From a virus: a stretch of DNA of 64,000 nt. Made by a program: the position numbers and the translations under genes. Below, piece by piece: positions 3 to 60,536 of the stretch; within the stretch, counting starts at the first letter, position 1, and every line of letters begins with the position of its first letter. The stretch covers positions 36,078 to 100,077 of the IMG/VR virus record IMGVR_UViG_3300045988_062714. The stretch is one strand, 5' to 3'. The notes beneath the pieces are model-generated. The model was not told the DNA's origin. It was given only the letters and a program-made list of their open reading frames with translations, and made no database searches.

Positions 3-888
3 CGTTCTGGGCTTCCAGAATCCTATTTAGCGGCTATATGTGCAGACTTCTAGGAAAGACTTGGCAGATTTCCCCACCTTGATGAAATTAAGGGAGTAGA
101 TTCTTCAAATTATTTGACAGAAGAGCTAAATATTAAACGTGGGATTACGAAGGAATAGTAGATTTATAGGCTTACTGGGAAAAATGATTTACAATCTTCA
201 TAGGTATGGATAAATGATAACTTTAGAGACCTAGAAGTGGAGTTTTCTCCATTCTTTGGCGATATTAAGGTATATATTACTCATAGACCTATTACTCAAG
301 AAATCTCTACTCCTGTAAGTCATTCTAAAATAAGCGATACGCTAGTTGTAGAGGAGATTGTAAGTAAATTGCGGGACGTATATGGACTACCAGTAGAATC
401 TGTTATAACAGAGGATTTAAATGAATATAAAGAATCTCCAATTTTTTCGGAAGGTGGGATAACTTATGTAAATGCAGATGCTGTTACCCTAGATACCCCA
501 GTAATAGAGCTAATTCCTCTGTTAATTACTTCACTCCACGGTACAGAACTTTACGATAAGCTAATTAAAGATAACGAAAAAGAATTTTCTAAAGAATTAA
601 GAAATAGAATAATAGATAAAAGCGAAAAATTATAGTTTCTTCCAACCAACGTATAGTATGAGTTAATGTATAATATGAAGCGTGTATTAGACTCTATTCT
701 AATGGGGGAATCTAGTATTAGAGATATTAATGACGATATATTATTCAACAGTACTTTGAGGTCACTTGCTAGAATAGTTAACTCTAAAATCGATGTTTCT
801 AATTCTAATATACTAAGTCTGGATTTGGAAGAAAAGCACAAATAGTTAATGGAAGAAGGGAAGGTAACTGAATACTGTCATGTCTGAA
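3..888 (+). CDS. Late-module protein, N-terminally truncated by the window. Frame 3 is open only if TAG is sense. In-frame TAG at 51, 156, 159, 201 and 633; real stop TGA at 886-888.
   Basis: Frame 3 from base 3 to 888 has no TAA or TGA but five TAG codons. The stop overlaps the ATG of the next gene (ATGTCTGA). Confidence 0.5.
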
Positions 889-3800: not shown

Positions 3801-5589
3801 TCTAGGAGTATTCTCAGATGTCTAGAATCCCTCTTCTGAAGGAGAATTATTTCAGATGAATAATATGTTTGATGCTGGAAAGAATACAGAGTAGAGACTA
3901 GAGAAGATTGCAGAGAAGGGATATGATTATTTTGAGAATAATCTAGAAACTTTGTTATTAAAGCATATATTTGCTTACTCTACTAAGAAAAACGTTGATT
4001 TAATTATGCCAATGGCTAAAGCATCAATGATCCATGTAATCACTTAGGGATAGTTAACTAATAAAAAGTTTACTAATACTGCCAATTATATCACAGATTA
4101 TATAAAATCTCATATTAAAAACGAATCTTTAATTCCTGAAAATTAGTAGAATTTTAATGCTATTGTTAGCAGAATTAAAAATGCGGCATCATTCTTGGTG
4201 CTGGGATTTTCTCCTATTTAGTATGGCTACTAGATGATATAGGCTCTTTGGACCGATATAAGGCTAATGTATTAGGGAAGAGGAGATGAAAACACTCCTT
4301 TCACCTTTGAGAATTTTGCATTTGCTTTTAAAGAAGTTTATAGAGAACTATTTACTCTTGGAGGAAAGCCTACTAAATGTAGCCTATTAAATGATATGTT
4401 TGCTATTAACGATAGAGATATGAATACTTATGCAGAACAGACTAAATCAGATAGGTATGGAATATTCAATATGTCTAATATTGCTTTTCACTGCACCAGC
4501 AGACCAGATTATTACAGTAGAATGTCTATATTTGTCACTTAGTTAAAATAGGATGGCAGTTATGATGCCTATGAAAAAGTTGGAAACAAACTAGTATATG
4601 ATTGGAAAAAGGATAAACGCTTTGAAGCATATGCTAATGGAAGGACTGATGACCCCAAATATAACGAACAAAAAGGGTTATATTACGCTATAGCTGAGTA
4701 GTTAGAAATAGAACATGCTAAAAATGCTGACGGTAGTTTATTCTAGATCGGACAACCTTTACCTAAATCTCATACAAACCAGCAGATTGAGAGTTTCAAA
4801 TCGTTAGCTGATGATATTTATGGTTACTATGCCCACGAAAAAAAGGCAATGATTCATTCCTATACTCTCGGAGCCTTGTGGATGCAAATGAGAACTTTCT
4901 GGTCTGGTAAGAAAAACCAGTATTTGGGAGGATAGGGTATCAAATTAAAAGGACGCTATGCTCAGTAGAAGGATGCTAATGGTAATTTGTTATACCTCAC
5001 CGAAGAAAATGGCAGAATGATACCAACTACAGAAAATACTGGAGTTCCAGTAGTAAAGTGGGAGGGAGAATGGTAGGAAGGAATTATGCTAACCTTATCA
5101 TAGTTAATATCTGGAACCTTTCAAGGAGATGGATTAAAGCATACTTTCGAAGATATGTGGTATAATGAGGATGAGAAGCTTAGAAATCTCTATAGAGCCA
5201 ATTTACGACAAATCTAGTATGATTTACTAATGTTCTTTATTGTTGGTTCTCTTGTCACTGGAACATTAGCCGATTGGGATGATGAAAACATGAAGAAAGC
5301 TAAGGATTCTAGAGATATAGACGATGCAGCTATAGCAGCTGCTGCTCATATGGCATGCAAGATGGTAAGTTCGTCTTTTTTAGACCTTAACTTTATTGAA
5401 TCTATTGGAGGACCACTAGTTTATTGGCAACCAATGTCATTTAGTTATTTTTCTAGAAGAGCCGAAGATATATATAATATAGCATTTGGGGATACTTCTT
5501 TTACTGATGCTCTTATTAGAATGTCTTCATTAACAAATAATACTAAGATATTTTGGAATACTTTACTTCCTGAAAGGGAGTAGGAATAA
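877..5589 (+). CDS. Giant late protein of about 1570 aa, probably virion-associated, with about 45 in-frame TAG codons read as sense. Contains a PD-(D/E)XK-like segment (IDLLVVDGDGYAHVIDYKTS).
   Basis: I read frame 1 codon by codon from 877 to 5589. It has zero TAA or TGA and many TAG, and terminates at TAA 5587-5589 just before a hairpin terminator. It joins track ORFs 1399-1923, 2668-2871 and 5230-5583 in one frame. Confidence 0.6.
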
Positions 5590-34267: not shown

Positions 34268-34849
34268 TCATACTCCAGTATGTCCAAATCCTCCTTCTCC
34301 TCGTTCAGTAGAAGGTAATTCTTCGACAACTTCCCATTCTATAGTTTCATGCTTAGCAATAACTATTTGGGCAATTCTTTCTCCATCAGTAATTCTAACT
34401 GGGACATTAGAAGTGTTCACTAATACAACTCCAATCTCTCCTCTGTAGTCGGCGTCAATGGTTCCAGGTGAATTAAGGACAGTAAGTCCCAATTTTAATG
34501 CAAGACCGCTTCGTGGTCGAACTTGCGCCTCGTAACCCTTAGGTAAAGCTATAAACAATCCAGTCGGAATCAAACATCTACCTCCGGGCTTTATTTCAAT
34601 AGTAGAAGCAACGGGAATACTAGGAACTCTTCTATCAGTAAGATTTCCTTCCTTGTCTACCACAAATGGACCATTTGGATCTTCAATTTTACTAATAGCT
34701 ACAACATCAGCATCGAAAAAGAATTTCTCAGGCTTATTGTCTACTAACTTAATTCTACTAAAGTCTCCTCTAATATCCATACCTGCTGATAAGGGAGTTT
34801 CATACTGAGGAAGTTGATGTCTTGATTTATTAATTATGAGTACTTTCAT
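34268..34849 (-). CDS. dut: dUTPase / dCTP deaminase family enzyme.
   Basis: RSGLALK and [17 protein letters not shown] motifs. Confidence 0.6.
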
Positions 34850-35384
34850 GTAATAAAATAAATTCAGTTAAATAAAATCTTGCATCTATAACACACTTAG
34901 GAACTAGTCCTTCTAGGCTTAAATTAGATCTTAGGGCATCTCTTACAACAGTAGCCGATATACCTTCTTCTACCTGTTCTCTTGCCATGAGAGTCATTGA
35001 TATATAACCCTTCAGCATAAACTTTGGAAACCATGTTGTAATAATTTCGTATCCATCGCTATAGTAGATATTAAAATGGGACTCTTTTATAATACTAACT
35101 ATGTTAGCATATAAATAGAATCCCCAATCCTGAGAGTTATCAGACTCATCAGTCAAATCATTAAGAGGCTGAATGATACATCTACTAAGTAAACCTTCGT
35201 CCTCTAAGGCAGTTTCTAGTAATTTTATCCTAACCTTTATAGGAATAGGATTACGCTTGTTTACTTTATCAGCACTACCAACTAACAAAAGAACCTTATC
35301 GTTCTCTGAACAAGCTTTTTTAATTAAAGCTAGGTGCCCATTGTGAATGGGCTGAAACCTAGCTAAAATAACTCCATATTTCAT
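34830..35384 (-). CDS. NMN adenylyltransferase-like nucleotidyltransferase (NadM/NadR-type).
   Basis: [12 protein letters not shown] (HxGH motif in the GRFQPxHxGH context). Confidence 0.55.
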
Positions 35385-36300: not shown

Positions 36301-36804
36301 TCATTTCCAAAAACGTGATGTTATGTCTTTAACTATGGGTTTTCCACAGCTATTATCTATATGAAGCATAACTTGATTAGTTGTCTTACTATTTAAAGGC
36401 CCGTTTTCTTCAATATATGGACCTAGCTTGATATAATCGAAATGCTTCATATTCACGTGCTCTGATAGTTCTTGTCTACCTGAGTACCATGCCACTTTTA
36501 AATTCGGATAATAATCTTTAACAAAACTAGCTAACACATTTACTAAGTGAGGGTCAGAATCCCCTCCCATAAATGCTATACACGAAATACCATCTGTAAT
36601 TAGTTCGTCTAGATGAATAATGTAATCATCAGAGAACCCCTGCGGATATTCAATTAATGGTTTACCTATATCTTCGGCTAGGTATTGACTATGACATCCT
36701 TTACAATGACAAGGACAGTTAGATATATTTATAGCTAATGTAATCTCATCCGGAATTTCCTGAAAGACTACTCTGGCATCAACATATTTAAGCATACTCC
36801 TCAA
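36301..36804 (-). CDS. nrdG: Anaerobic RNR activating protein NrdG (radical SAM).
   Basis: CPCHCKGC (CxxxCxxC), positioned next to nrdD. Confidence 0.65.
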   Translation of the reverse strand: MRSMLKYVDARVVFQEIPDEITLAINISNCPCHCKGCHSQYLAEDIGKPLIEYPQGFSDDYIIHLDELITDGISCIAFMGGDSDPHLVNVLASFVKDYYPNLKVAWYSGRQELSEHVNMKHFDYIKLGPYIEENGPLNSKTTNQVMLHIDNSCGKPIVKDITSRFWK

Positions 36805-37453
36805 TCTTTTTAGTTTCTGTATCTAATATAAAAGGTCTTCTTACGTCTAAGCAAGCAAACTTGTCAGTAATAATGGGTTCTGATTCCAATTGAGTATGCC
36901 CAAATATTTGATAATATGTAGACTCTCTATCTCCTTCTCTGACATCGCTCCATACCATACTGCCTGTATTAGACCACCCTCCTCTCATACGAGATACTTC
37001 CCATAGGAAGCCAACTAGAAAGTCCTCAGGCTTAGTAATTAGGTCAGTAATAGTAAAATCCATACTCTTTAACCAATCATTAGTAACTCCAGCATGAGTA
37101 TATAGAATACCTTCCGAGAAGTATTTGAGTTGGAATAGAGACTTGAAATTCTCAAACATTTCCTTAATTAGCTCTGCATTAGCGTAATCATACCTAGAAG
37201 CACTTCCGAAATCATAGCAATAAGCACAGTCGTGATTTCCAAGGAGTAGTATTACCTTATCGGGATTATCAACTTTGAATTGGATAATCTCTTTAAACTC
37301 CTCTATCGCATTCTCTCTAGTAATACCTTCATAACCATATGGGTCGAGGTAGTCCCCTAAAAAGACTACCTTATCCACACTATTAATCTTCTCTTTTGCT
37401 TTTCTCCAGAATGGTCTACCGTGAACATCTGGAATAATTAAAACTTTACTCAT
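36788..37453 (-). CDS. Ser/Thr-phosphatase-like metallophosphoesterase.
   Basis: Motifs DVHGR, GDYLDPYG and GNHD. Confidence 0.6.
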   Translation of the reverse strand: MSKVLIIPDVHGRPFWRKAKEKINSVDKVVFLGDYLDPYGYEGITRENAIEEFKEIIQFKVDNPDKVILLLGNHDCAYCYDFGSASRYDYANAELIKEMFENFKSLFQLKYFSEGILYTHAGVTNDWLKSMDFTITDLITKPEDFLVGFLWEVSRMRGGWSNTGSMVWSDVREGDRESTYYQIFGHTQLESEPIITDKFACLDVRRPFILDTETKKIEEYA

Positions 37454-37455
37454 TT

Positions 37456-39627
37456 TTAATTTACTTCTTTAGAATATGTTCTTTTCTCAGCTTCTATTCT
37501 TCTATCTTTACCAAAAGCAGTGATAGGTCTTAGATAGCCAATAATTCTGGTATATTGAGTAATATGTTCACTCCCACATTTAGGACATACCTTAATGGGA
37601 GCTTTCACAATATGTTTACAATCCTCGCACTTACTATTAGGAATATTGAACGTGAAGTAATTAGTTCCTTGCTGAATAGCAAAGTCTATAAGCTTCAAGT
37701 ATTGCTCCTTAGATAGATGTTCCTCCAAGTTAATGTGGGCTGCACTACCTCCATCTGTATACTGATAAGTCTGCCTTCCATGAAGTATAAACTTATCTAA
37801 TACAGATGTGTCATCATGGGCATTATAGAAATAACTATTGTATAGATTCCTATCTTCAGGAACCCAATAGCCATCTGCTTTATCCCATTTATAATTCTTA
37901 CCACCAAGTCCCTCTGCTGGAACAACTTCAGAATTAAATAGGAAAGGTCTTTTCTTATCGTAGATGGAATGAATCTTATTCTGCTCCTTAATAGTTCCGA
38001 GGATTAGTTGCAAGAACTCGAAATACTCTGGATTATTAGATACTTTCAGTCCTAGGAACTCAGCAGCTTCATTCAGACCATTTAGCCCAATAGTACTATA
38101 TAGGTCTTTGATGTTTATATAACCTCCATTTGAAGAAGCAAACATCTTCTTATCCTCCCACTCATAGAGCATGGTCTTATAGGTAATGTGATACTTGTAT
38201 ACTCTCTCTAGAATATCTATTAGATATTTTTTGAGTAGGGCAACATTATCTTTACAATGCAAGAGATTTTTGTCTCCATCTTCACTCCACCAAGTAGTTT
38301 CTTGTCTAGCCCAATCTTGGACAATTCTGTTAATATTCAGAGTAATAACATTACAAGAACCTGTCTTTACACCAGTCATACCAGAGGTAGGACTAAATGT
38401 ATTTTCAGCTAATTCATTACGAAGACGACAACAAGATGCAAGACTATCTGCACTGTCTGAGATATAGGTAAAGAAACTATGACCTTGAGAATACATTTCT
38501 GCACATAAGTCTTTATAGTTCTTATCTATAATGTCTTTACCGTCATGCACCATAGCAAAGGTTTCTACTGGAAATGTCAGAACTTGTTTCAAGCGAAGTT
38601 TATTAAACCAAGACATGAACAATCTCTGTAAAGTATCAATTGCTACCCATTCTGGCTTAGTTCCGTCTGGATAGTAAAATTCTCCAAATAGAGATTCAAA
38701 ATAGGTCTTATCGTAGTACGAAACATTAGTAAAGGGAGATTGATAACTTCTGTTTCCAGCAGGTTGATTAATTCCCCAAACAAACTGTTTAAAAGCTTTA
38801 AGGATAGAGTCTTCGATAGTTCTCTTAATAAGAGAATGTTCCGAAGTACATATACAGTCGAGCTTCTCGTACCACTTTTCTCCGTATTCAGCAATAATAT
38901 AATAGTTAAGTGCAATAAAATAGCTACCTACAGCAACTGCTCCTTTACATTGAGAGGACAATAGAAATACTAAGTTAGTAACTTGTCCACTGAATGACTG
39001 CAAATCATTAGGAGGGCCAGGAGTAACTCCATCAATATTACCTACTCCCTCTAACATTAGGGGGTATAACGAGACTGCCATACAATACTGTTTAAGTACT
39101 GACGTAGAAGCCTCATCGTGGGTATAAATAATATGACTGTCTAGGTCTTTAGAATATTGAGAAGAGAGTTCGGGATAAAGAAGCTTTAATTTCTTCTTCA
39201 TACGATAGCGCTGAATTTCTCTGTTCTCGCGCTTTCTATCTTCACTCTCTAATGTAGCAACGTTCTTAGATACAACATTAGCATTTCCATCTGTTTCAGA
39301 TGAAGTAGCTGCATTTTCGGAACTATTAATATAGTTATCTTGATAACTAATCTTAGCTATGATTTCTCTAAGTCTAGATTGTTCACTTCTATACTGAGAA
39401 TATGCTGAGGCTACATCATCGTAACCATAGTCCCTCAAGGTTTCTATTACTACGTCCTGAATCTCTTCTATAGTAATGCCGTCCCATAAATGCATATCAG
39501 CCACCATAGCTGTAATGACTTCTTTATTTTCTTCAGGACAGCAAGCATTAAATGCTTTAGATATTGCTTCTACTATCTTATTACCGTCAAATTCCTGTAA
39601 ACTTCCGTCTCTCTTTACTACTTGCAT
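37456..39627 (-). CDS. nrdD: Anaerobic ribonucleoside-triphosphate reductase NrdD (class III).
   Basis: 723 aa. C-terminal zinc ribbon CEDCKH...CPKCG plus glycyl-radical motif TRIIGYLRP. Confidence 0.8.
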   Translation of the reverse strand: MQVVKRDGSLQEFDGNKIVEAISKAFNACCPEENKEVITAMVADMHLWDGITIEEIQDVVIETLRDYGYDDVASAYSQYRSEQSRLREIIAKISYQDNYINSSENAATSSETDGNANVVSKNVATLESEDRKRENREIQRYRMKKKLKLLYPELSSQYSKDLDSHIIYTHDEASTSVLKQYCMAVSLYPLMLEGVGNIDGVTPGPPNDLQSFSGQVTNLVFLLSSQCKGAVAVGSYFIALNYYIIAEYGEKWYEKLDCICTSEHSLIKRTIEDSILKAFKQFVWGINQPAGNRSYQSPFTNVSYYDKTYFESLFGEFYYPDGTKPEWVAIDTLQRLFMSWFNKLRLKQVLTFPVETFAMVHDGKDIIDKNYKDLCAEMYSQGHSFFTYISDSADSLASCCRLRNELAENTFSPTSGMTGVKTGSCNVITLNINRIVQDWARQETTWWSEDGDKNLLHCKDNVALLKKYLIDILERVYKYHITYKTMLYEWEDKKMFASSNGGYINIKDLYSTIGLNGLNEAAEFLGLKVSNNPEYFEFLQLILGTIKEQNKIHSIYDKKRPFLFNSEVVPAEGLGGKNYKWDKADGYWVPEDRNLYNSYFYNAHDDTSVLDKFILHGRQTYQYTDGGSAAHINLEEHLSKEQYLKLIDFAIQQGTNYFTFNIPNSKCEDCKHIVKAPIKVCPKCGSEHITQYTRIIGYLRPITAFGKDRRIEAEKRTYSKEVN

Positions 39628-52953: not shown

Positions 52954-53135
52954 ACTCTTTGTCTATATACTTAATTTTCTCCACGATGGAATCGTTAACT
53001 ATATAGATGCTATCTCTAATTATAGAATCCCTTACTATTTCCTGCACATTAGGTGGAGAAACTGTGGTTTCCTTCTTAGGTATTAGCAAATAAATAATTA
53101 ACAATCCCATCAAGGCTATTAAGATATAGCAAAAC

Positions 53136-53720
53136 TTAGTCCTGTTCATTCAGATCAACGCCTATTGCCTTGGCTTTAGTTACCAGTTCAGCGCATTTAA
53201 CTACATCTATACCTTCTTTAGCTAGATTCAAAGCTTGCTTCTCTTTATCAGAGAGATTTTTGATTTCATTTTTGAGGGCTTCTTTTCTTTCAAACCGAGC
53301 TTTCATTTGGTTATATCCCTTAATGATACGCTCTGGATTTTCTTTCAAGAAAGTAAGCTCCTGTTCCAAGAATGCTTTTACCAGCACTTTACTTGCTACA
53401 CCTCCAGATGTAGTATAAATAGCTGGACACTTTGGATCATGAAGAGCCTTATCGTAAGCCTTCTTCTGTCCCTTAGCCAAATCGAAGGTATCACTAGGAT
53501 TACATACTGCAATACCAACGGTTACTACTCTACAGATTCTAGCATAGTCCGGATCATTTGTGCATATGTATTCATCGGGAGTCACCCAACCTACTGCTAA
53601 GACACAATCATCCTCACTTACTTCAGCAGCCTGACTTAAAGCACAAGCTACAATTTTACGTTCTTCACCCTTAAAGTCTACAAATGAGTCTACCATGTAC
53701 TCAATCACATCCTGTTTCAT
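53136..53720 (-). CDS. Hypothetical protein.
   Basis: 194-aa ORF. Confidence 0.4.
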   Translation of the reverse strand: MKQDVIEYMVDSFVDFKGEERKIVACALSQAAEVSEDDCVLAVGWVTPDEYICTNDPDYARICRVVTVGIAVCNPSDTFDLAKGQKKAYDKALHDPKCPAIYTTSGGVASKVLVKAFLEQELTFLKENPERIIKGYNQMKARFERKEALKNEIKNLSDKEKQALNLAKEGIDVVKCAELVTKAKAIGVDLNEQD

Positions 53721-54656
53721 TTTCTACAATTTTAAAACCGTTATTAATTAAATATTCTTCGGGAGCAAATTGTAATTCAAAGAATCTATGCAGAGAGTAT
53801 TTCTTCCTCTTACAACATAGTTGACTCTTTTTCAATACAATAGGTTTATTAGAAGAGTAGTATTTTTCTTCCATTAGAGCAGCTCCCCAGCTCCATATTT
53901 GATATACTGAACTACAGTAGATAAACTTATCATGCGTATGCACAATCTGTTTATCCTTCTCGTAAGTCCTCCGTGAGGTCGTCATAAAACACCTTTATAG
54001 TCTTAAAAATGAATTGATTCTTTTGAGTATTATAACAGTCATTCCAGCTACATTTCTGATAGTGAGATAGTAGTTCGGAAGCTTTTACGCCAGTATACAC
54101 ATTTCTGCAAAAGCTATCGTCATCATCACAATCTGCTGCGTTTATGGTGTACTTTCCAATAGAAATCGCATAATGATAATGACTTCTCGCTACTTCGCTA
54201 AACTTTTCTTCTAGTTCATAATCCTCGTAAATAATGACTTTGAACTTGAATTTATCTCTACTTAGTAGCCTAGCTAGACAGTATGCTATATAGCAACACC
54301 CTCCACAATTAACGTCATATTCCTCATCTAAGAATCTACAAAGCTTATTCAGCCTCTCCGCTAGAATCTCCTGAATCTCCTGAGACTTCGAGTTTAATTT
54401 CCTCCTTTGCCTTTTTAAACTCATCTAAGTACCTACCTAAAGTTATAACTTCATCTTTTCCGAACTTTTTTCTTACTGCATAATGGCGACATCGCTCTAT
54501 AGCAGCTTCTAGGGGATAGCCGTAGCCCTCCACTTTAAATTCTTTTCTCGGATTTTTCCCACCAATATCATACAACAATTCCAAGTCAAACCTCGGAGAA
54601 GATTCACTAATGGGAGTAAGTCTGTAAAAAGGACCTTCAATTACCATTTTATTTTG

Positions 54657-55466
54657 TTATTTACAAACGTCTATTACAGTTAAGTTCTCGTTGCTGGGAC
54701 GATAATTAATATCCCTATGAGAATTAGATACAATAACCTGGTCAAAATTATTACACATATTAACCAGGCCTTTATCATTAACTGCATGACATACGATTAT
54801 GATAAACTTGCTATTTGGATATCTCTCTTTGAGAACCTTAAGCTCTCCTAGGAAAGTTCCTCCAGCATCACACAAGTCATCAATGAACACAAATGTAGAA
54901 TAGTAGCAATTCTTAGACTCCTCTATTTCAAAGGACTCAATTCTTCCAGTCTCTAGATTTCTTTCCTTTTTGAAGACTAAATAACCATAGTGAGAATAGT
55001 TACTTCCATATCTGTCCTTCGCCCCATGGTCTGGGAACACGATATTACTTTGGGCTGGAATCCAAGAGTGGTGTCCAAATTCCCAAGGTAAACATCTGTC
55101 ACCAAGAAGATGAAAAGTTCTACTAGAATGTGCCTCAAGAACATATATGTTTCTATAGCCTAAGCTATTTAACATATTACATACTACTTTCAAGGAGAAT
55201 GGACGATTAAAACTCATTACTCTATCCATACGCATAGACATTAAATAAGTAATGTGTAAATCCCATTCTACTTCTTGTCTATCTAAAATATCTCCTACTT
55301 GCATTAAGAGGAATAAATCCTCAGTATTAGATATTCTACAAATGACATCAATAGATTCCTTTCTGTTTAATTCCTCAGTAAGGAAAAACTGAGGCTCTCC
55401 ATCAGGAAATCTAGTAACATCGTACTTAATTTCACTGATTTCCTTGTTGATTAAGTTTAATTTCAT
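54657..55466 (-). CDS. Ribose-phosphate pyrophosphokinase-like enzyme (Prs-like; candidate ADPR-pyrophosphate synthetase Adps).
   Basis: PRPP-binding loop VFIDDLCDAGGTF and a Prs-like VFPDHGAKDRY segment. Confidence 0.55.
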   Translation of the reverse strand: MKLNLINKEISEIKYDVTRFPDGEPQFFLTEELNRKESIDVICRISNTEDLFLLMQVGDILDRQEVEWDLHITYLMSMRMDRVMSFNRPFSLKVVCNMLNSLGYRNIYVLEAHSSRTFHLLGDRCLPWEFGHHSWIPAQSNIVFPDHGAKDRYGSNYSHYGYLVFKKERNLETGRIESFEIEESKNCYYSTFVFIDDLCDAGGTFLGELKVLKERYPNSKFIIIVCHAVNDKGLVNMCNNFDQVIVSNSHRDINYRPSNENLTVIDVCK

Positions 55467-55887
55467 CTACTACATATTTTAAGATTTCATAACTTTCTTC
55501 TAGACCTGCCCTATCATCTAGGAGGATATTATAATAGGGTTTCTCAGAATTAGGAAATACAGGACTTTCATTTGTATATAGCTCAAAGTCTTCATCCAGA
55601 CCTAATAATTTAGCAGTTTTCATCTGTTTAATACATAGCTCTTGAAGATTTGTTTCACAGGTAAACAATATCAAATGAAATCCCAATTTATAACACTTAT
55701 TAAGTAAATTTATGACTTCACTATAATCTCCTCCATTATTATGGTAATCGAAAATAGTATTATCAAAATCGAAAGCGACTATTAGCTTTCCGTATTTATG
55801 ATACTCTTCTAATAGTCGTTTCTTGCAAGCTTCTTTCCCAAAAGGATGATTAAAGTCCATGGTCAATTCTTTGTCTGATTTCTTCAA
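55432..55887 (-). CDS. HAD-superfamily phosphatase.
   Basis: IVAFDFDNTIFDY (DxDxT). Confidence 0.5.
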   Translation of the reverse strand: MKKSDKELTMDFNHPFGKEACKKRLLEEYHKYGKLIVAFDFDNTIFDYHNNGGDYSEVINLLNKCYKLGFHLILFTCETNLQELCIKQMKTAKLLGLDEDFELYTNESPVFPNSEKPYYNILLDDRAGLEESYEILKYVVDEIKLNQQGNQ

Positions 55888-57400
55888 GAGAATATTCTTT
55901 CTTCAAGATACCATCTTCAAAGACAGTCTCTAAGCATCCCTCTTTTTCCTCCTCGATTGAGACCTGGTCGGTAGCAGTATACTTCCCATCCAGACCTTTA
56001 TAGACAGCAATCAAACCTTTCAAAGAGTTCTTAGTACCATCATCAGTTTTAGGATGTTTGAAGATTTCTTTCAATTCGCCATTTACTACGCAAGCAGTAG
56101 CCTTAATAGCAAACCCAAGACTATCTCTACTTGCATACTGATAGGAATATGAACCTACTCCCAGAACGAGATTACAAGCCGCCATATGAGCGTTTTCTAA
56201 TCTCAAGTAGATTTGCTTTTGACGTTCTAGAGTAATAGAATCTCCATAAAGCAGACCAACCTTAGTGCTAGGATAACGGTAATCCTTTGAAGTAGTATTC
56301 CATCCGAAGATTTTACCAAGCATATAATATGCCCCATAATATTGACCTTCGGACACTTCAACATACTCTGCATCGTCGTTAAACGGAGCATAGCAGCAAT
56401 AATACTTACCTTCTTTCATTCTGGTATTGAAGTGAGGATTAGTTCTCAACCCGCAGATTATATCTACTGGGTCTCCACTATCAGGACGGATTACTACTCT
56501 ACCATCACGAGCCATAATGTCTTTCTTCAGCTTGGGCAAGAAATTTTCAATTACATTCCAGAAATCCCAAGTATCAGATACAATAGAAACAAACCCAGAA
56601 GGATACAAATCATTAATTAGACGTTTGAAAGTGCCCAGCTCATCTTCCTCCCCTCCAGCACACATTACAGAGTGTTCTGTTGCTGGAACTGTAGCAGCAA
56701 TCAATTCCTCGTCTGAATTAGCTCCATAATATTCTTCCAAAGCAGCAATAGCTGGAATAGTCTCACTTCCCACAAAAGAAGTCATATGCGCCATACCAGA
56801 TATAATTGCGGCTTCCATTCCCGCCATACCTCGCATTGAGAAATCATGACAACAAAAACCAAGATTTACATCTGTTGGAAAACCAGTCTTGCAAGCATGA
56901 CGATGTAGCTCTTTCTTATAAAGCCTAGCTCTAGTAGCAGATGTGCATGGCATCCACAAGGTACAGCTGATAATAGTCTCTAAGTAGTTAGTTAACCAAA
57001 AGAACTCGGGTAGGGTATTTGTAATGGTCATCATGGGAACCCGAATAGGGCACACAGAACCTTCAGGAAGAGCCTTTATGCGAATTGGTAGATACCCAAG
57101 GTCATATAAAGCTTCAATATGTCTGTACCCAACGGATTCAATACCAACAAAGTTGTTTACTCTACGATAGAACATCTCTACAGCTTCCTTCTTTGGTAGA
57201 TTAAAGAAGTTTTTCTCAAACTGTTTAATGAGATATTCTTTGATTAGGTATTGAATACCAAATACTACTGAACCTTCGGTTGCTTCTGGGAAGTATTTAT
57301 TACTTCTAGGAGTCCAGTTACTATAAACTTGTTCAGTACCTTCGGGGTACATTCTGTGATGGCCCAATTTGTAACCATCTGTAGCATTAATTATTTCCAT
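55850..57400 (-). CDS. nadV: Nicotinamide phosphoribosyltransferase-like enzyme (NadV/NAMPT or Namat).
   Basis: N-terminal INATDGYKLGHHRMYP...QVYS matches the NAMPT TDSYKxxH...YP...VYSY pattern. 516 aa. Confidence 0.7.
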   Translation of the reverse strand: MEIINATDGYKLGHHRMYPEGTEQVYSNWTPRSNKYFPEATEGSVVFGIQYLIKEYLIKQFEKNFFNLPKKEAVEMFYRRVNNFVGIESVGYRHIEALYDLGYLPIRIKALPEGSVCPIRVPMMTITNTLPEFFWLTNYLETIISCTLWMPCTSATRARLYKKELHRHACKTGFPTDVNLGFCCHDFSMRGMAGMEAAIISGMAHMTSFVGSETIPAIAALEEYYGANSDEELIAATVPATEHSVMCAGGEEDELGTFKRLINDLYPSGFVSIVSDTWDFWNVIENFLPKLKKDIMARDGRVVIRPDSGDPVDIICGLRTNPHFNTRMKEGKYYCCYAPFNDDAEYVEVSEGQYYGAYYMLGKIFGWNTTSKDYRYPSTKVGLLYGDSITLERQKQIYLRLENAHMAACNLVLGVGSYSYQYASRDSLGFAIKATACVVNGELKEIFKHPKTDDGTKNSLKGLIAVYKGLDGKYTATDQVSIEEEKEGCLETVFEDGILKKEYSLEEIRQRIDHGL

Positions 57401-57413
57401 TCTAAAAATTATT

Positions 57414-57938
57414 TTAATAACTAATTGTTAATAAACTTTTCATGCCTTTACCACTAGCTAAATTCTTAAAACACTGAGTGATAAATTCCTTCGTTTCTGG
57501 ATGGATAGCCCTAGGAGAATTTATATACTTAATCCACCAGTTATATTCTCCTTGAAAACTATTACCGTTGTATACTTTACCAGCAGCCAGATAATCGCAT
57601 ACCAATTCTAGAGCATACTCTTTAGGCATCTTCACTGGAACACCGCCAATGTCTAGCTTAGTTACCCAGTATTCATAATGGTGTGGATTTCTTCCTCTGT
57701 GATGTAAATAAGACCTAGAATATCCTAGAATTTCTTTTTCCTTGTTTAAGGGAGATGTGTCATCATCGTAAAATTTTACAGAACGAGAGAACTCATACCA
57801 TCCGAATTTAGATAAGTCGTGCAAGATGCCCTGTTTGTATAAACCTAACTGAAAACAGTAATAAGCTACCCAAAACTTATGTCTAAGTATTCGCCTAAGA
57901 TGTTTCAGTGTTATACACATACATTTAAGAATTTCCAT
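57414..57938 (-). CDS. Hypothetical His-rich protein (possible HD-like hydrolase).
   Basis: HDLSK...YLHHRGRNPHHYEY. Confidence 0.35.
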   Translation of the reverse strand: MEILKCMCITLKHLRRILRHKFWVAYYCFQLGLYKQGILHDLSKFGWYEFSRSVKFYDDDTSPLNKEKEILGYSRSYLHHRGRNPHHYEYWVTKLDIGGVPVKMPKEYALELVCDYLAAGKVYNGNSFQGEYNWWIKYINSPRAIHPETKEFITQCFKNLASGKGMKSLLTISY

Positions 57939-58254: not shown

Positions 58255-59082
58255 TCATTTGTTATTAGCTACATCTTTAAATAAGGTGGGAACCTGACCA
58301 TAAGTAGGAAGTTTTCCATCCCACTTCTTAATCATATCCTGCTGAACTATGAGAACTGACAAAGATGCTGAAATCTTTCTATTATATTCAGCTTCTGCAT
58401 CACCCTTAATCTTAAGAGCTTCTGCCTCTCCTTGTGCAGCTGCTACTTTCTTTTTAGCTTCTGCCTCAATAGTCTTAACTTCATTCTCTGCCTTCAAAGC
58501 CTGTTGAATTGCAGCATTCTTAGCATCAATAGAATTGACTAGCGTCTGTGGATATTGAAGACCAGAAGTCATTTGTTCAAGCTGAAAATTCTCAGCCAAG
58601 AGTTCCTTTGACAGTCTATCTTCTATAGACTTCTCAAACTCCTCACGTTTACTTACTAGTTCATCAGTAGTATAGTTATTCAGCTGAATGCGAAAAGCAT
58701 TCTTTACGTAATTATACAAAGTAGTGTTAATTACCTCTACAATATCTTCCTTTCTATACTTCTTAAATACTTCTGGTGATTTCCCGTCAACAATCTTCAA
58801 AGAAATTGTAGGGTCTACAGTAAATGATGATCCATCTTTAGCATTAATACTGAAAGGAGGATAGTCCACAGTCTGTACGAATGTAGGATATTCATATACA
58901 GCCGTAGTAACAGGATTGTACCATACCGCACCAGTAACAAGAGACACATCGTCTACTCCTTTACCATCTCCGTATAGATTTACCTTGATGCCTTCATAAC
59001 CAGCATCAATTCTCTCATAGCCACAACTAGATAAGCCAAACACTAAAGTTAATACGCACAAAATCTTAATAATTGTCTTCAT
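58255..59082 (-). CDS. SPFH/band-7 (stomatin/HflK-like) lipoprotein.
   Basis: Lipobox LVFGLSSCGY. C-terminal Ala/Glu-rich coiled coil typical of SPFH proteins. Confidence 0.5.
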   Translation of the reverse strand: MKTIIKILCVLTLVFGLSSCGYERIDAGYEGIKVNLYGDGKGVDDVSLVTGAVWYNPVTTAVYEYPTFVQTVDYPPFSINAKDGSSFTVDPTISLKIVDGKSPEVFKKYRKEDIVEVINTTLYNYVKNAFRIQLNNYTTDELVSKREEFEKSIEDRLSKELLAENFQLEQMTSGLQYPQTLVNSIDAKNAAIQQALKAENEVKTIEAEAKKKVAAAQGEAEALKIKGDAEAEYNRKISASLSVLIVQQDMIKKWDGKLPTYGQVPTLFKDVANNK

Positions 59083-59409
59083 TTTCCTTATTTAAGTAAT
59101 GTTTCTTAATATATTTGAATATCCTATAAACTAAACTTGGGATTGCCACTAGTAATAGTAACAACCCCAAGATATTTGCAGCATACAATGATTCGGATAA
59201 TAACCATAAGCTGACGTTGTAAATCACAACGATTAACAGAACGGCAACAAATGCCTTAATTAAGTTTTTCTCGACCATAGAATAATATATTCTCTATTGC
59301 CACTTTTATTATACCATAGTAGTACATTATCCTCTGTAATGTCTACATACGGGTCATAATAAATATACGCGGCAAACATTATGCACACAATTATAAATGC
59401 AACCATGAT

Positions 59410-59523
59410 TTATCGAGTTTTAACAGACCCAGGTCTGGTAGTTGCAGCCTGAAAATCTTTTCCTTGTTTATCCCACCATGCTTGCTTTGCTTTTAACCAA
59501 GCTACTTTTTTCTTATACTTCAT
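59410..59523 (-). CDS. Small, very basic ORF of 37 aa (MKYKKKVAWLKAKQAWWDKQGKDF...).
   Basis: ATGA start/stop overlap with the OmpA-like gene. Confidence 0.3.
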   Translation of the reverse strand: MKYKKKVAWLKAKQAWWDKQGKDFQAATTRPGSVKTR

Positions 59524-60536
59524 TGTTCGGAAATTATTACGATACGATTAAATTCATTATCTCCAAATTCAGTAGTAATTCCGCATCCCTTAACAACCAA
59601 TTTATCCTCTGGAGCACCATAGCTAATCAGAGCCTTCTTCATAGATTCTGCCCTAGCTACAGCAAGGTTATTATTAAACTCTTCTGGACCTTCTTCCGAA
59701 GCATATCCCTCAATCACATAAGTTTTTCCACTATTAGAAATATAGGAAGCTAGTTCTGAGACAGCCACATTGGAAGTTTTAGAAATCTCTGAAGAATTTT
59801 GAAGGAATTGAATTTTTGGAGTCAAAAGCTCTACTTTAGTAATTTCGATTGTGTCCGTCTTAACAATTTCTATTGGTTTACGAGCCATAAGTTCCTCATT
59901 CTTGGCTCTCAACTCATTAATAGAAGCGTTTAGGCTTTCAACCTCGGCATCACTATACAACTTCATAATTGGAAAGTCCCCTTTGCTAGACTTAAAGCGA
60001 TAGGTAGCACCAATATAGACGTTAAACTCATGATTCAGAGGAGAAGTCTTGGGAAGTAACATATACTCAGGAGTAACATTTAATGCCCATCTATTAGAGA
60101 TATTAAAGTTACATCTAACGGCTCCACGGGCGGATACATTATTATAGACATCTCCATAAGTATGATACCAACCAGCACCAACGATTAGTATAGGCTCAAA
60201 CAGACGCCTATCTCCGTTATATCCACATATCAGGTTAGTAAGATTGGTAGTAACGTTAGCTGTCAAATTATGTGAATCAAAGAATGTTTTATTTCCTTGG
60301 TTCATTCCAGCCATCATGTCTAACTCCAAGCCAAAGATAGGAGTAACCTCCTTACCAATAGCAATGTTTACTAGTACATCATTTGGTTCTGCCCAACTTC
60401 TATGGTTATCCCAAATAGTAGTTCCAACATTACCAGAAATATACCAGTTATCCTTCATACTTCCAGTCTCAACAACTTGTGCGCTAGCAAATGCACACAT
60501 CAAACACAAACAAATAATACTAAAAATTCTCTTCAT
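59520..60536 (-). CDS. Outer-membrane protein with a C-terminal OmpA-like peptidoglycan-binding domain.
   Basis: Signal peptide MKRIFSIICLCLMCAFASAQ. C-terminal EGYASEEGPEEFNNNLAVARAESM (OmpA_C pattern). Confidence 0.55.
   Translation of the reverse strand: MKRIFSIICLCLMCAFASAQVVETGSMKDNWYISGNVGTTIWDNHRSWAEPNDVLVNIAIGKEVTPIFGLELDMMAGMNQGNKTFFDSHNLTANVTTNLTNLICGYNGDRRLFEPILIVGAGWYHTYGDVYNNVSARGAVRCNFNISNRWALNVTPEYMLLPKTSPLNHEFNVYIGATYRFKSSKGDFPIMKLYSDAEVESLNASINELRAKNEELMARKPIEIVKTDTIEITKVELLTPKIQFLQNSSEISKTSNVAVSELASYISNSGKTYVIEGYASEEGPEEFNNNLAVARAESMKKALISYGAPEDKLVVKGCGITTEFGDNEFNRIVIISEQ

What the first reader, a model, noticed from the sequence alone, without database searches (positions are those of the whole stretch)
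54657..57400. NAD+ reconstitution cassette: NAMPT-like, Prs/Adps-like and HAD phosphatase, with an NMNAT-like gene at 34830-35384
Three adjacent genes encode an enzyme with the NAMPT N-terminal signature (55850-57400), a phosphatase with a DxDxT motif (55432-55887) and a PRPP-synthetase-like enzyme with the PRPP-binding loop (54657-55466). Elsewhere there is an HxGH nucleotidyltransferase matching NMNAT (34830-35384). Together these resemble the recently described phage NAD+ reconstitution pathways. NARP1 uses Adps plus Namat to rebuild NAD+ from ADP-ribose and nicotinamide. NARP2 uses NAMPT plus NMNAT. Both counter NAD+-depleting defences such as Thoeris, DSR, SIR2-type effectors and SEFIR. 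This phage may carry both routes, or a hybrid with an extra phosphatase step not described in the canonical pathways.
Basis: partly seen in the sequence, partly recalled or inferred. Interest (0 to 1): 0.8.

Follow-up and report, generated by a model that had tools for sequence, protein, structure and literature searches.

The report
Phage NAD+ rebuilding operon, HAD phosphatase
A gut phage carries the known two-enzyme kit that rebuilds NAD+ after bacterial immune systems destroy it, but with an unreported small HAD-type phosphatase wedged between the two genes where other phages carry an unrelated Macro-domain phosphatase, plus a separate NMN adenylyltransferase elsewhere in the genome.

Summary
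Three overlapping minus-strand genes encode a Namat-type transferase (55850-57400), a 151-aa capless HAD-fold phosphatase that I call X (55432-55887), and an Adps-type PRPS-like enzyme (54657-55466). An archaeal/NadM-type NMNAT lies at 34830-35384.

The core is NARP1, not NARP2. The NAMPT-like protein carries the Namat adenine-clamp signature (GSYSYQYASRD). Its best solved match is SpβL1 Namat (E 1e-145). The Prs-like protein keeps the Adps catalytic residues and scores further below the PRPS cut-off than three validated Adps enzymes do.

The new element is X. It matches no Pfam family, but all four HAD motifs are invariant and the model is confident. It travels with Adps and Namat in unrelated phages and in several gene orders. 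These include crAss-like phages, Lak megaphages, Bacillus Wphvirus, and Vibrio, Aeromonas and Tenacibaculum phages.

In Vibrio phage VPT02, X fills the slot that the Macro-domain ADPR-1''-phosphate phosphatase Adpp fills in phage Cody, while the flanking genes are 80-86% identical. Across the sampled Namat-type loci I found Macro or X, never both.

Best reading: a NARP1-AP-like pathway with a non-homologous phosphatase. The substrate is inferred, not shown. I rate this a new variant of a known kind.

The parts
55850..57400 (-). Namat (nicotinamide ADP-ribose transferase, Nampt family), 516 aa
   Evidence: Family matches: PF04095 and PF18127; phrog_448 E 2e-182.

Best solved match is SpβL1 Namat 9W5X/9W5W (E 1e-145, 489 bits). 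Human NAMPT scores 226 bits, and the available portion of KVP40 Nampt scores 172 bits by tblastn.

Residue map to 9W5X, from the alignment:
- D8 = D13
- Y10 = Y15
- HDFSMRG identical (F189, S190, R192)
- PATEHS identical (catalytic His)
- IRPDSGD identical (R306, D308)
- GSYSYQYASRD = GSFTYQYNTRD, the selectivity-clamp helix signature GSXΦXΦXΦTRD of PMC12774641

Differences: K35 in place of R40, E213 in place of D215, S in place of T398, and an insertion of about 26 aa within residues 318-355.
55432..55887 (-). X: capless HAD-fold phosphatase, 151 aa from the TTG start (probably 142 aa from the ATG at 55860), embedded between Namat and Adps
   Evidence: No Pfam or NCBIfam hit. It matches phrog_1238 (E 6e-22), a family named 'phosphoheptose isomerase'.

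In a 46-sequence alignment these residues are invariant: D40, D42, N43, T44 (motif I), K116 (motif III), and D124, D125, R126 (motif IV). Motif II has T or S at position 76.

- deoxyribonucleotidases and class B/C acid phosphatases
- 1xpj
- phage AfhF (9iqw)

All of these are HAD-fold proteins. Foldseek against the PDB gives the same picture. The family profile hits 2obb at E 0.004.
54657..55466 (-). Adps (ADP-ribose pyrophosphokinase, PRPS-like), 269 aa
   Evidence: It matches phrog_619 at E 5.9e-52.

On TIGR01251 it scores 59 bits against a cut-off of 113. The validated Adps enzymes of SpβL1, Gary and ICP1 score 106, 100 and 98 bits. Its match ends at profile position 287 of 309.

A MAFFT alignment with the three validated Adps maps window residues to ICP1 residues:
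- F20 = F18
- R79 = R87
- H113 = H121
- D146 = D161
- K167 = K185
- D196/D197 = D212/D213
- C199 = C215
- D200 = D216
- T204 = S220
- F205 = F221

BLASTP to SpβL1 Adps gives 28% identity, E 1e-18.
34830..35384 (-). Stand-alone NMN adenylyltransferase (archaeal/NadM type), 184 aa, overlapping the dUTPase gene 34268-34849
   Evidence: It matches PF01467.

Its best NCBIfam hits are NMNAT models, but all are below cut-off (NF002243: 57 bits against 127).

Best solved relatives are M. jannaschii and M. thermautotrophicus NMNAT and NadM. R9, H14, H17, R44 and R148 align with R11, H16, H19, R47 and R136 of the archaeal enzyme (alignments).

KVP40 NatV matches only the N-terminal domain, and there is no Nudix domain.

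It is present on 41 of 44 same-lineage contigs that carry the cassette.
55510..55725 (-). Mosaic, hypervariable patch inside X (residues about 58-113)
   Evidence: IMG/VR locus L013, and about 15 other loci, are 98-100% identical to the window across 53000-57405. The exception is this patch, at 45-60% identity.

At least four alleles occur in the same phage lineage, in two loop-length classes.

The patch covers helix 2, the motif II strand, helix 3 and the loop at the C2-cap insertion site. Both flanks of the gene are identical between alleles.

Best explanation
The cassette is a NARP1 NAD+ reconstitution operon, extended by an embedded HAD-family phosphatase.

**Core pathway.** These steps are established for the family and inferred here from conserved residues. 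Adps transfers pyrophosphate from ATP to the 1'' position of ADP-ribose, giving ADPR-PP. Namat then joins ADPR-PP to nicotinamide, giving NAD+ and PPi. This undoes NAD+ cleavage by TIR, SIR2, SEFIR and similar immune effectors.

**The phosphatase X.** It is an active Mg2+-dependent aspartyl-phosphatase. Its most likely role is to convert a phosphorylated ADP-ribose that NARP1 cannot use into ADPR. The best candidate is ADPR-1''-phosphate, the product of RES-domain NAD+ phosphorylases such as aRES. On that reading X does the job of the Macro-domain Adpp of NARP1-AP with an unrelated fold.

**The NMNAT.** The NMNAT 20 kb away can make NAD+ from NMN and ATP. It could use NMN from Namat's residual PRPP-dependent activity, or NMN released by NAD+ diphosphatases such as Metis MisA.

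**Shown versus inferred.** Shown: the gene identities, the conserved catalytic residues, the linkage of X to Adps and Namat across lineages, and the displacement of Macro by X. Inferred: the substrate of X and the counter-defence role of the NMNAT.
For: **Namat identity.** The clamp signature and catalytic core are present, and SpβL1 Namat is the top solved match.

**Adps identity.** The catalytic and acceptor residues are conserved. The protein is more PRPS-divergent than three biochemically validated Adps enzymes.

**X is a functional HAD phosphatase.** All four motifs are invariant, and the confident model hits only HAD-fold proteins.

**X is tied to NARP1.**
- 73 of 80 IMG/VR loci with X have both Adps and Namat within about 3 kb.
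- Several gene orders occur: Namat-X-Adps, Adps-X-Namat, Adps-Namat-X and Adps..X..Namat.
- The same linkage appears in annotated phages from unrelated groups: crAss-like cr126_1 and DAC15, Bacillus Belinda, Vibrio VPT02, Aeromonas PhAER-3, Tenacibaculum PTm1 and Phass-1.
- The other neighbouring genes do not co-travel with the cassette.

**Same slot as Adpp.** VPT02 and Cody share Adps at 83% identity, Namat at 85%, an RNA ligase at 86% and a Nudix gene at 80%. The gene between Adps and Namat is X in VPT02 and a PF01661 Macro protein in Cody. The orthologue in the sister phage Gary is the experimentally shown ADPR-1P phosphatase.

**Macro or X, never both.** None of the 80 X loci holds a Macro gene. 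None of at least 21 Macro loci with a Namat-type gene holds X. No X-carrying phage appears in the published Macro list.

**Host distribution of aRES.** aRES is most frequent in Bacillota (10.4% of genomes) and Bacteroidota (4.7%). These are the host phyla of most X-carrying phages.
Against: - No biochemical data exist for X or any close relative. Its nearest solved structure, BT_0820, has no known function.
- The wider X family has 978 clusters at 50% identity. It also occurs outside NARP1, for example fused to a nucleoside 2-deoxyribosyltransferase-like domain or to a GIY-YIG domain. The fold therefore does not fix the substrate.
- A distant X-like subfamily co-occurs with a Macro gene in Nampt-type clusters. 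Macro and HAD-like proteins are therefore not always alternatives.
- The flap residues that might bind substrate are not conserved between the gut-phage X and the VPT02 X.
- Macro-type NARP1 operons also occur in the same gut virome dataset, for example L212 and L221. Host phylum alone therefore does not explain the choice of phosphatase.
- The NMNAT scores below every curated NMNAT cut-off. Its closest phage relative, in Bacteroides phage BS-TP1, has no Namat or Adps within 20 kb.
Confidence: 0.55

Rival explanations
1. X belongs to the NAD+ pathway but acts on a substrate other than ADPR-1''P. Candidates are:
- 2'-phospho-ADPR or NADP(H), which would feed the NADP pool into NARP1
- ADPR-2''/3''-phosphate or the 1'',2''-cyclic phosphate
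- NMN
- PRPP or ribose phosphates
- PPi, whose hydrolysis would pull the Namat reaction forward

On this reading X would answer a defence chemistry that has not yet been described.
For: - The tight linkage to NARP1 holds under this reading too.
- The structural neighbours act on ribose-ring or pentose phosphates. T4 Pnkp is a 3'-phosphatase. AfhF removes the 5-phosphate of arabinofuranose-1,5-bisphosphate. AphA and the deoxyribonucleotidases are further examples.
- Fusions of X to a nucleoside 2-deoxyribosyltransferase-like domain point to nucleotide or pentose-phosphate substrates.
- X-like HADs co-occur with Macro in Nampt-type clusters, which suggests non-redundant roles there.
- The middle segment of X is hypervariable.
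Against: - X replaces Macro Adpp precisely, in situ, in otherwise 80-86% identical neighbourhoods.
- X and Macro are mutually exclusive in the Namat-type operons sampled. The simplest explanation is equivalent function.
- The co-occurring X-like proteins have His in place of the Asp+2 general acid (FDIHGT), so they form a different subfamily.
Confidence: 0.27
2. This is classical auxiliary NAD+ salvage rather than ADPR recycling. The Prs-like enzyme makes PRPP, the NAMPT-like enzyme makes NMN from nicotinamide and PRPP, and the distant NMNAT makes NAD+. That is a NARP2-like route. X would be a generic nucleotidase.
For: - This is how these genes are annotated in every public record.
- An NMNAT is present and co-inherited with the cassette in this lineage.
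- SpβL1 Namat keeps about half of human NAMPT's NMN-forming activity in vitro.
Against: - The Namat clamp signature is present, and the Nampt-type GGGLLQ motif is absent.
- The Prs-like protein scores 59 bits against a PRPS cut-off of 113 and lacks the C-terminal end of the profile. It clusters with validated Adps enzymes.
- Other X-NARP1 phages lack the NMNAT. Neither crAss-like nor Bacillus phages appear among the NMNAT hits.
- The NMNAT is not in the operon.
Confidence: 0.1
3. X has nothing to do with NAD+. It would be, for example, a polynucleotide 3'-phosphatase or a dNMP nucleotidase that happens to sit in the cassette.
For: - T4 Pnkp phosphatase and 5'(3')-deoxyribonucleotidases are among the top structural neighbours.
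- Some Bacillus phage records call the gene 'polynucleotide kinase'.
- L075 and L081 have X with no NARP1 genes within 6 kb.
Against: - The linkage to Adps and Namat survives gene-order changes and spans phages of Bacteroidota, Bacillota and Gammaproteobacteria, while no other neighbouring gene co-travels.
- The coding sequences overlap on both sides of X.
- X takes the place of an ADPR-1P phosphatase.
Confidence: 0.06

Closest known systems
NARP1-AP (Adps, Macro-domain Adpp and Namat) of Vibrio phage Gary and Pseudomonas PaP1-like phages; bioRxiv 10.64898/2026.01.28.702374
   Same: It is a three-gene operon in which a small phosphatase gene sits between or next to Adps and Namat. In VPT02 and Cody the slot is literally the same one.
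   Different: The phosphatase here is a capless HAD-fold aspartyl-phosphatase, not a Macro domain. The two share no sequence or fold relationship. Activity on ADPR-1''P has not been tested. The known Macro list covers Vibrio, Pseudomonas, Acinetobacter, Pseudoalteromonas and Aeromonas phages. X is mainly found in phages of Bacteroidota and the Bacillus cereus group.
NARP1 (Adps plus Namat) of Bacillus phage SpβL1, E. coli phage Bas63 and Vibrio phage ICP1
   Same: The catalytic residues of both enzymes and the Namat clamp-helix signature are shared. The genes are adjacent and co-oriented.
   Different: - A third gene is embedded between the two.
- Namat has Glu at the nicotinamide-contacting Asp215 position, Lys at the Arg40 position, and an insertion of about 26 aa.
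- Adps is only 25-28% identical to the validated enzymes.
NARP2 (Nampt plus bifunctional Nmnat-Nudix NatV) of Vibrio phage KVP40
   Same: An NMNAT of the same NadM/archaeal type is encoded in the genome.
   Different: There is no PRPP-type Nampt and no Nudix domain. The NMNAT is not in an operon with the Nampt-family gene. [quoted passage not shown]
BT_0820 (PDB 2obb) and the 1xpj / AfhF group of minimal capless HAD phosphatases
   Same: They share the fold, the small size, and the motif pattern DxDxT ... DDR.
   Different: Sequence identity is only about 20%. BT_0820 has no known function. AfhF acts on arabinofuranose-1,5-bisphosphate in a DNA-modification pathway. X has an extra conserved N-terminal helix with an HPF motif.

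Membership tests
NARP1 | Adps and Namat genes lie close together (the operational definition used by Osterman et al.) | tested here: met
   The two genes are separated only by the 151-aa gene X, all three overlap, and all are on the same strand.
NARP1 | [quoted passage not shown] | tested here: met
   The window protein has GSYSYQYASRD: Y at position 3, Y at position 7, and T replaced by S. KVP40 Nampt has GGGLLQQLDRD.
NARP1 | Namat selectivity-clamp loop residue Arg40 | tested here: inconclusive
   Lys35 aligns with Arg40, and the loop is 2 residues longer. The paper describes this loop as variable.
NARP1 | Nampt-like catalytic core of Namat (F189, R192, D215, catalytic His, R306, D308) | tested here: met
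   All are identical except D215, which is Glu213 here. The same Glu occurs in the cr126_1 and DAC15 Namats.
NARP1 | Adps catalytic Lys185, the acceptor and PP-loop residues, and the Phe221 lid | tested here: met
   K167, R79, H113, D146, D196, D197, D200, T204 and F205 all align. F92 is not conserved, but it is not conserved in SpβL1 Adps either.
NARP1 | Adps is distinct from housekeeping PRPS: truncated C-terminus and below the PRPS family thresholds | tested here: met
   It is 269 aa long and scores 59 bits on TIGR01251 (cut-off 113), with the match ending at profile position 287 of 309. Validated Adps enzymes score 98-106 bits.
NARP1 | ADPR-PP formation and NAD+ synthesis from ADPR, ATP and nicotinamide | not testable with these tools
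   This needs enzyme assays.
NARP1-AP | A phosphatase gene lies inside or next to the Adps-Namat operon | tested here: met
   X lies between Namat and Adps. Homologues of X sit in the Adpp slot in VPT02 and PhAER-3.
NARP1-AP | The phosphatase is a Macro-domain protein (PF01661, PF14519 or PF20016; Poa1p-like) | tested here: not met
   X has no Macro hit and no BLAST similarity to Cody gp176. Its fold is HAD. Five Macro queries find no convincing homologue anywhere in the window (best hits E 0.01-0.87, short and about 25% identical).
NARP1-AP | Hydrolysis of ADPR-1''P to ADPR, and rescue from aRES | not testable with these tools
   This is inferred only from slot equivalence and mutual exclusivity.
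NARP2 | A PRPP-specific Nampt of the KVP40 clade | tested here: not met
   The only Nampt-family gene is Namat-type. A KVP40 Nampt query hits only that gene.
NARP2 | An Nmnat is encoded in the same genome | tested here: met
   34830-35384 has the conserved NMNAT catalytic residues. It has no Nudix domain and scores below the curated cut-offs.
HAD superfamily phosphatases | Four motifs: DxDx[TV], [ST], K, and DD/GDxxxD, with Asp at the +2 position | tested here: met
   D40, D42, T44, T76, K116, D124 and D125 are invariant or conservatively substituted in 46 homologues.
HAD superfamily phosphatases | Rossmannoid HAD fold | tested here: met
HAD superfamily phosphatases | A match to a curated HAD family model | tested here: not met
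   No Pfam or NCBIfam model reaches threshold. Relatives give only faint hits, with E-values of 0.017-0.39.

The most novel reading that the evidence does not exclude
X is not just an Adpp substitute. On this reading it recognises a phosphorylated NAD+ breakdown product made by a defence chemistry not yet described in Bacteroidota or Bacillota. Its recombining middle segment would tune substrate access or evade a host factor.

Together with the co-inherited NMNAT, this ~190-kb gut phage lineage would then carry a three-way NAD+ repair kit:
- ADPR, through Adps and Namat
- phospho-ADPR, through X
- NMN, through the NMNAT

That kit would cover glycosidic, phosphorolytic and diphosphatase modes of NAD+ destruction.
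Probability: 0.2. Interest if true: 0.8.

Novelty: new variant of a known kind. Interest (0 to 1): 0.62.

Why it matters
NAD+ depletion is among the commonest bacterial antiphage strategies. NARP1 is the main known phage answer, and aRES was described as a way for bacteria to defeat it.

If the HAD protein is a second, independently recruited ADPR-1''P phosphatase, then phages have solved the aRES problem at least twice, with unrelated folds. That solution would also be widespread in human-gut phages, including crAss-like phages, Lak megaphages and this ~190-kb lineage, as well as in Bacillus cereus-group phages. Those groups are absent from the published Macro-type list.

The finding also gives a name and a testable function to a family of about 1,000 sequence clusters. 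That family has no Pfam model and is currently mis-annotated as 'phosphoheptose isomerase'.

Finally, it flags a NARP1 phage lineage that also keeps an NMNAT. [quoted passage not shown]

Tried and rejected
- **Flap and N-terminal residues as a substrate signature.** I considered the conserved residues H14, R24, Y29, H49 and Y55. I rejected them because the VPT02, PhAER-3 and PTm1 homologues lack them.
- **Fusion proteins.** I looked for fusions of X to Adps, Namat or Macro among 150 family representatives and found none. The fusions present are to PF15891 (Nuc_deoxyri_tr2) and to GIY-YIG, in contexts without NARP1.
- **Neighbouring genes as further cassette members.** I tested DUF5662, the SPFH gene and the small ORFs at 53136-54647. 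They are conserved only within the lineage. The one exception is DUF5662, which lies inside the cassette in L058. DUF5662 has no solved relative.
- **Apparent co-occurrence of Macro and X.** Thirteen Macro loci seemed to contain X. They turned out to be Nampt-type clusters with a diverged DxH HAD, not NARP1 operons.
- **Context of L075 and L081.** These loci hold X without NARP1 nearby. The neighbours are all hypothetical proteins, so the context was uninformative.
- **Bacteroides phage BS-TP1.** It holds the closest NMNAT among cultured phages. There is no Namat or Adps in the 40 kb inspected.
- **AFDB fold search.** The library was unavailable.
- **Literature.** Searches for a HAD-type NARP1 partner returned nothing.
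Full report
**1. Observation**

All four ORFs exist at the stated coordinates on the minus strand.

- The 516-aa product of 55850-57400 matches NAPRTase (PF04095) and NAMPT_N (PF18127).
- The 269-aa product of 54657-55466 is PRPS-like, with the loop IDDLCDAGGTF.
- The 151-aa product of 55432-55887 contains VAFDFDNTIF, a DxDxT motif.
- The 184-aa product of 34830-35384 has [10 protein letters not shown] and ISATVVR.

The three cassette genes overlap each other, so they form one expression unit. Homologues of the middle protein start just before FNHPF, so its real start is probably the ATG at 55860.

The window is a replication and nucleotide-metabolism block, with every gene on the minus strand. 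It encodes family A DNA polymerase, NrdD and NrdG, ATP-dependent DNA ligase, ThyX, dUTPase, helicases and a primase. It belongs to a ~185-190-kb gut phage lineage that is abundant in IMG/VR. Among deposited phage records only a 25-kb human-faecal scaffold, MT836666.1, is close. Everything else is below 60% amino-acid identity.

**2. NAMPT or Namat**

The best solved matches are 9W5X and 9W5W (E 1e-145, 489 bits). These are the SpβL1 Namat structures. Human NAMPT scores 226 bits.

[quoted passage not shown] The window protein reads GSYSYQYASRD. KVP40 Nampt, the NARP2 enzyme, reads GGGLLQQLDRD.

The catalytic core is identical to SpβL1 Namat, with one exception: Glu213 replaces the nicotinamide-contacting Asp215. 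In the variable clamp loop, Lys35 replaces Arg40. The same Glu occurs in the crAss-like phage Namats. I conclude the protein is Namat-type.

**3. Prs or Adps**

Sequence alone separates these two less cleanly, so I calibrated against known enzymes. The three biochemically validated Adps proteins are from SpβL1, Gary and ICP1 (their sequences come). On the PRPS model TIGR01251 they score 106, 100 and 98 bits, all below the cut-off of 113. The window protein scores 59 bits, and its match stops at profile position 287 of 309.

In an alignment with the validated enzymes it keeps the catalytic lysine (K167 = ICP1 K185). It also keeps the acceptor residues, the DD(L/I)CD..(T/S)F PP loop, and the Phe that caps the donor adenine (residue roles are). 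It matches phrog_619 at E 5.9e-52.

Together with its position next to a Namat-type gene, this meets the operational definition of NARP1. Activity on ribose-5-phosphate cannot be excluded without an assay.

**4. The middle gene, X**

No Pfam or NCBIfam model matches it. PHROGs places it in phrog_1238, which carries the misleading name 'phosphoheptose isomerase'.

The family is large. It has 596 clusters at 90% identity in one search, none with a Pfam annotation. It has 978 representatives at 50% identity in an exhaustive search.

In 46 homologues the following residues are invariant: D40, D42, N43 and T44 (motif I), K116, and D124, D125 and R126. A Thr or Ser occupies the motif II position. 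That is the full HAD phosphatase motif set, including the Asp+2 general acid.

- T4 Pnkp 3'-phosphatase
- 5'(3')-deoxyribonucleotidases
- class B and C acid phosphatases
- GmhB
- 1xpj
- phage AfhF

X is therefore a minimal, capless and almost certainly active HAD phosphatase. Its fold does not reveal its substrate.

**5. Linkage of X to NARP1**

Of 80 IMG/VR loci with an X homologue, 73 have both Namat and Adps within about 3 kb. Most of the exceptions are explained:

- Three loci (L047-L049) end within about 50 nt downstream of X.
- Two Lak-like loci have Adps next to X but no Namat within the stretch held. In the deposited Lak genomes, X and Namat lie about 220 kb apart.
- Two loci have no NARP1 gene within 6 kb.

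Gene order varies between lineages: Namat-X-Adps, Adps-X-Namat, Adps-Namat-X and Adps..X..Namat.

Deposited genomes show the same linkage in:

- crAss-like Steigviridae (cr126_1, cr111_1, DAC15, DAC17)
- 54 Bacillus cereus-group phage records (the checked example, Belinda, is a Wphvirus)
- Vibrio phage VPT02
- Aeromonas phage PhAER-3
- Tenacibaculum phage PTm1
- Phass-1

None of the other neighbouring genes co-travels with the cassette outside the lineage.

X is present in 85 phage records, against 1,369 records with an Adps homologue. That is about 6%.

**6. Relation to the known phosphatase**

A January 2026 preprint showed that RES-domain defence proteins (aRES) cleave NAD+ by phosphorolysis to nicotinamide and ADPR-1''-phosphate. 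NARP1 cannot use that product. About 15% of NARP1 operons carry a Macro-domain phosphatase, Adpp, which restores ADPR. The authors call this arrangement NARP1-AP.

Vibrio phage Cody belongs to the same genus as Ceto and Thalassa, which are in the published Macro list. Its operon matches the published Adps-phosphatase-Namat operon of phage Gary, reading Adps-Macro-Namat, and its gp176 matches PF01661.

Vibrio phage VPT02 belongs to a different genus of the same subfamily. Its Adps is 83% identical to Cody's, its Namat 85%, the upstream RNA ligase 86% and the Nudix gene 80%. The gene between Adps and Namat, however, is an X homologue with no similarity to the Macro protein. This is a non-orthologous displacement in place.

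I then tested the reverse direction on 81 IMG/VR loci around Macro genes. At least 21 of them have a Namat-type gene, and none of those holds X. None of the 80 X loci holds a Macro gene. None of the X-carrying phages appears in the published Macro list, which covers Vibrio, Pseudomonas, Acinetobacter, Pseudoalteromonas and Aeromonas phages.

The same preprint reports aRES in 10.4% of Bacillota genomes, 4.7% of Bacteroidota and 3.3% of Pseudomonadota. The first two are the host phyla of most X-carrying phages.

**7. Caveats on the inferred function of X**

- Thirteen Macro loci do contain a distant X-like HAD. They are a different kind of cluster: a Nampt-type gene (GMGGKLLQ...), Macro, a second HAD, a dCMP deaminase-like gene (judged by eye), the X-like protein and a SIR2-like gene (judged by eye). 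The X-like protein there reads FDIHGT, with His at the Asp+2 position. HAD-like and Macro proteins can therefore coexist in NAD-related clusters, though not in the Namat-type operons I sampled.
- More distant family members occur outside NARP1, some fused to a nucleoside 2-deoxyribosyltransferase-like domain.
- Macro-type NARP1 operons also occur in the same gut virome dataset, for example L212 and L221. Host phylum is therefore not the whole story.

Weighing these, I put about 0.85 on X being an active phosphatase that works with NARP1. I put about 0.5-0.55 on ADPR-1''P as its substrate.

**8. The NMNAT**

The closest solved relatives are archaeal NMNATs and NadM. The residues probed by mutagenesis in the archaeal enzyme (R11, H16, H19, R47, R136) are all conserved. 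The protein scores below all curated cut-offs. It lacks the Nudix domain of KVP40 NatV, and it overlaps the dUTPase gene.

It is co-inherited with the cassette on 41 of 44 contigs of this lineage, about 18-24 kb away. It is absent from the NMNAT hit list for crAss-like and Bacillus phages. Its closest relative in a cultured phage, Bacteroides phage BS-TP1, has no NARP1 genes within 20 kb. It is therefore a lineage feature rather than part of the operon.

This is not NARP2 as defined, because there is no PRPP-type Nampt. Two uses are chemically plausible, and both are inference:

- Completing NAD+ synthesis from the NMN that Namat can make from PRPP. SpβL1 Namat retains about half of human NAMPT's activity.
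- Re-joining NMN released by NAD+ diphosphatases such as Metis MisA, which are predicted to defeat NARP1.

[quoted passage not shown] This lineage combines NARP1 with an Nmnat only.

**9. An unexplained detail**

Contigs that are 98-100% identical to the window across 53000-57405 differ sharply in one place. That place is a ~220-nt patch inside X (window 55510-55725, residues about 58-113), at 45-60% identity. At least four alleles and two loop lengths occur in the lineage.

The patch spans the motif II strand and the loop at the position where HAD enzymes insert a C2 cap. The cause could be recombination between co-circulating phages or diversifying selection. I could not decide between them.

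**10. Verdict**

The core is a known system, NARP1, in a new gut phage lineage. The embedded HAD phosphatase is a previously unreported accessory that occupies the place of the Macro-domain Adpp. I found no mention of it in the searchable literature.

I classify the finding as a new variant of a known kind, with moderate to high interest. The central functional claim rests on comparative genomics and needs the simple enzyme and rescue assays listed under next steps.

Noticed in passing
window 55510-55725 (inside gene X): This is a mosaic patch. Otherwise 98-100% identical contigs (L013 and about 15 others) drop to 45-60% identity only here. At least four alleles and two loop lengths occur in one phage lineage.
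   Followed up: partly
window 57414-57938 (-): A DUF5662 protein (PF18907, E 1e-28) lies 14 nt upstream of Namat. In IMG/VR locus L058 its homologue lies between X and Adps. It has no solved relative and no known function.
   Followed up: partly
window 55850-57400, residue 213 and residues about 318-355: The Namat has Glu where SpβL1 Namat and human NAMPT have the nicotinamide-contacting Asp (D215 and D219). The same Glu occurs in the crAss-like phage Namats cr126_1 and DAC15. The protein also has an insertion of about 26 aa relative to SpβL1 Namat.
   Followed up: partly
L174 3385-8342 (also L175-L177, L179-L181, L183, L184, L188, L191, L202): This is a different NAD-related cluster in environmental phage contigs. 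In order it holds a Nampt-type gene (GMGGKLLQADINRDT), a Macro gene, a second HAD, a dCMP deaminase-like gene, an X-like HAD with His in place of Asp+2 (FDIHGT, FEDKA), and a SIR2-like gene. The dCMP deaminase and SIR2 assignments were read by eye from the translations, not tested. A Prs-like gene lies further downstream in some of these loci.
   Followed up: partly
L163 (Phage Phass-1, OQ749652.1) 881-4396: A gene annotated as nicotinamidase sits directly upstream of Adps-Namat-X. This is odd for a pathway that consumes nicotinamide.
   Followed up: no
Prevotella Lak megaphage records (e.g. MK250024.1); IMG/VR Lak-like loci L061 and L070: In the Lak-like loci L061 and L070, X lies next to Adps with no Namat within the stretch held. 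In the deposited Lak genomes, X (about 413-420 kb) and Namat (about 190-197 kb) lie about 220 kb apart, so the cassette is split.
   Followed up: no
P0209 and P0229 (metagenomic proteins of 284-290 aa): The X domain is fused to a nucleoside 2-deoxyribosyltransferase-like domain (PF15891). It sits in a phage-like contig next to YopX and an ATP-dependent DNA ligase, with no NARP1 genes. P0184 is a GIY-YIG plus X fusion.
   Followed up: partly
window 58255-60536 (-): An SPFH/Band 7 protein (58255-59082), listed in PHROGs as a lipoprotein, and an OmpA-like protein with an outer-membrane beta-barrel domain (59520-60536) are encoded just upstream of the cassette. An SPFH gene also lies next to the cassette in crAss-like cr126_1.
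   Followed up: no
window 36301-39627 (-): This block holds an anaerobic ribonucleotide reductase NrdD with an ATP-cone, a gene I read as its activase (not scanned), and a gene I read as a metallophosphoesterase (36788-37453, also not scanned). They lie in the same block as the NMNAT and dUTPase genes, which fits an anaerobic gut host.
   Followed up: no
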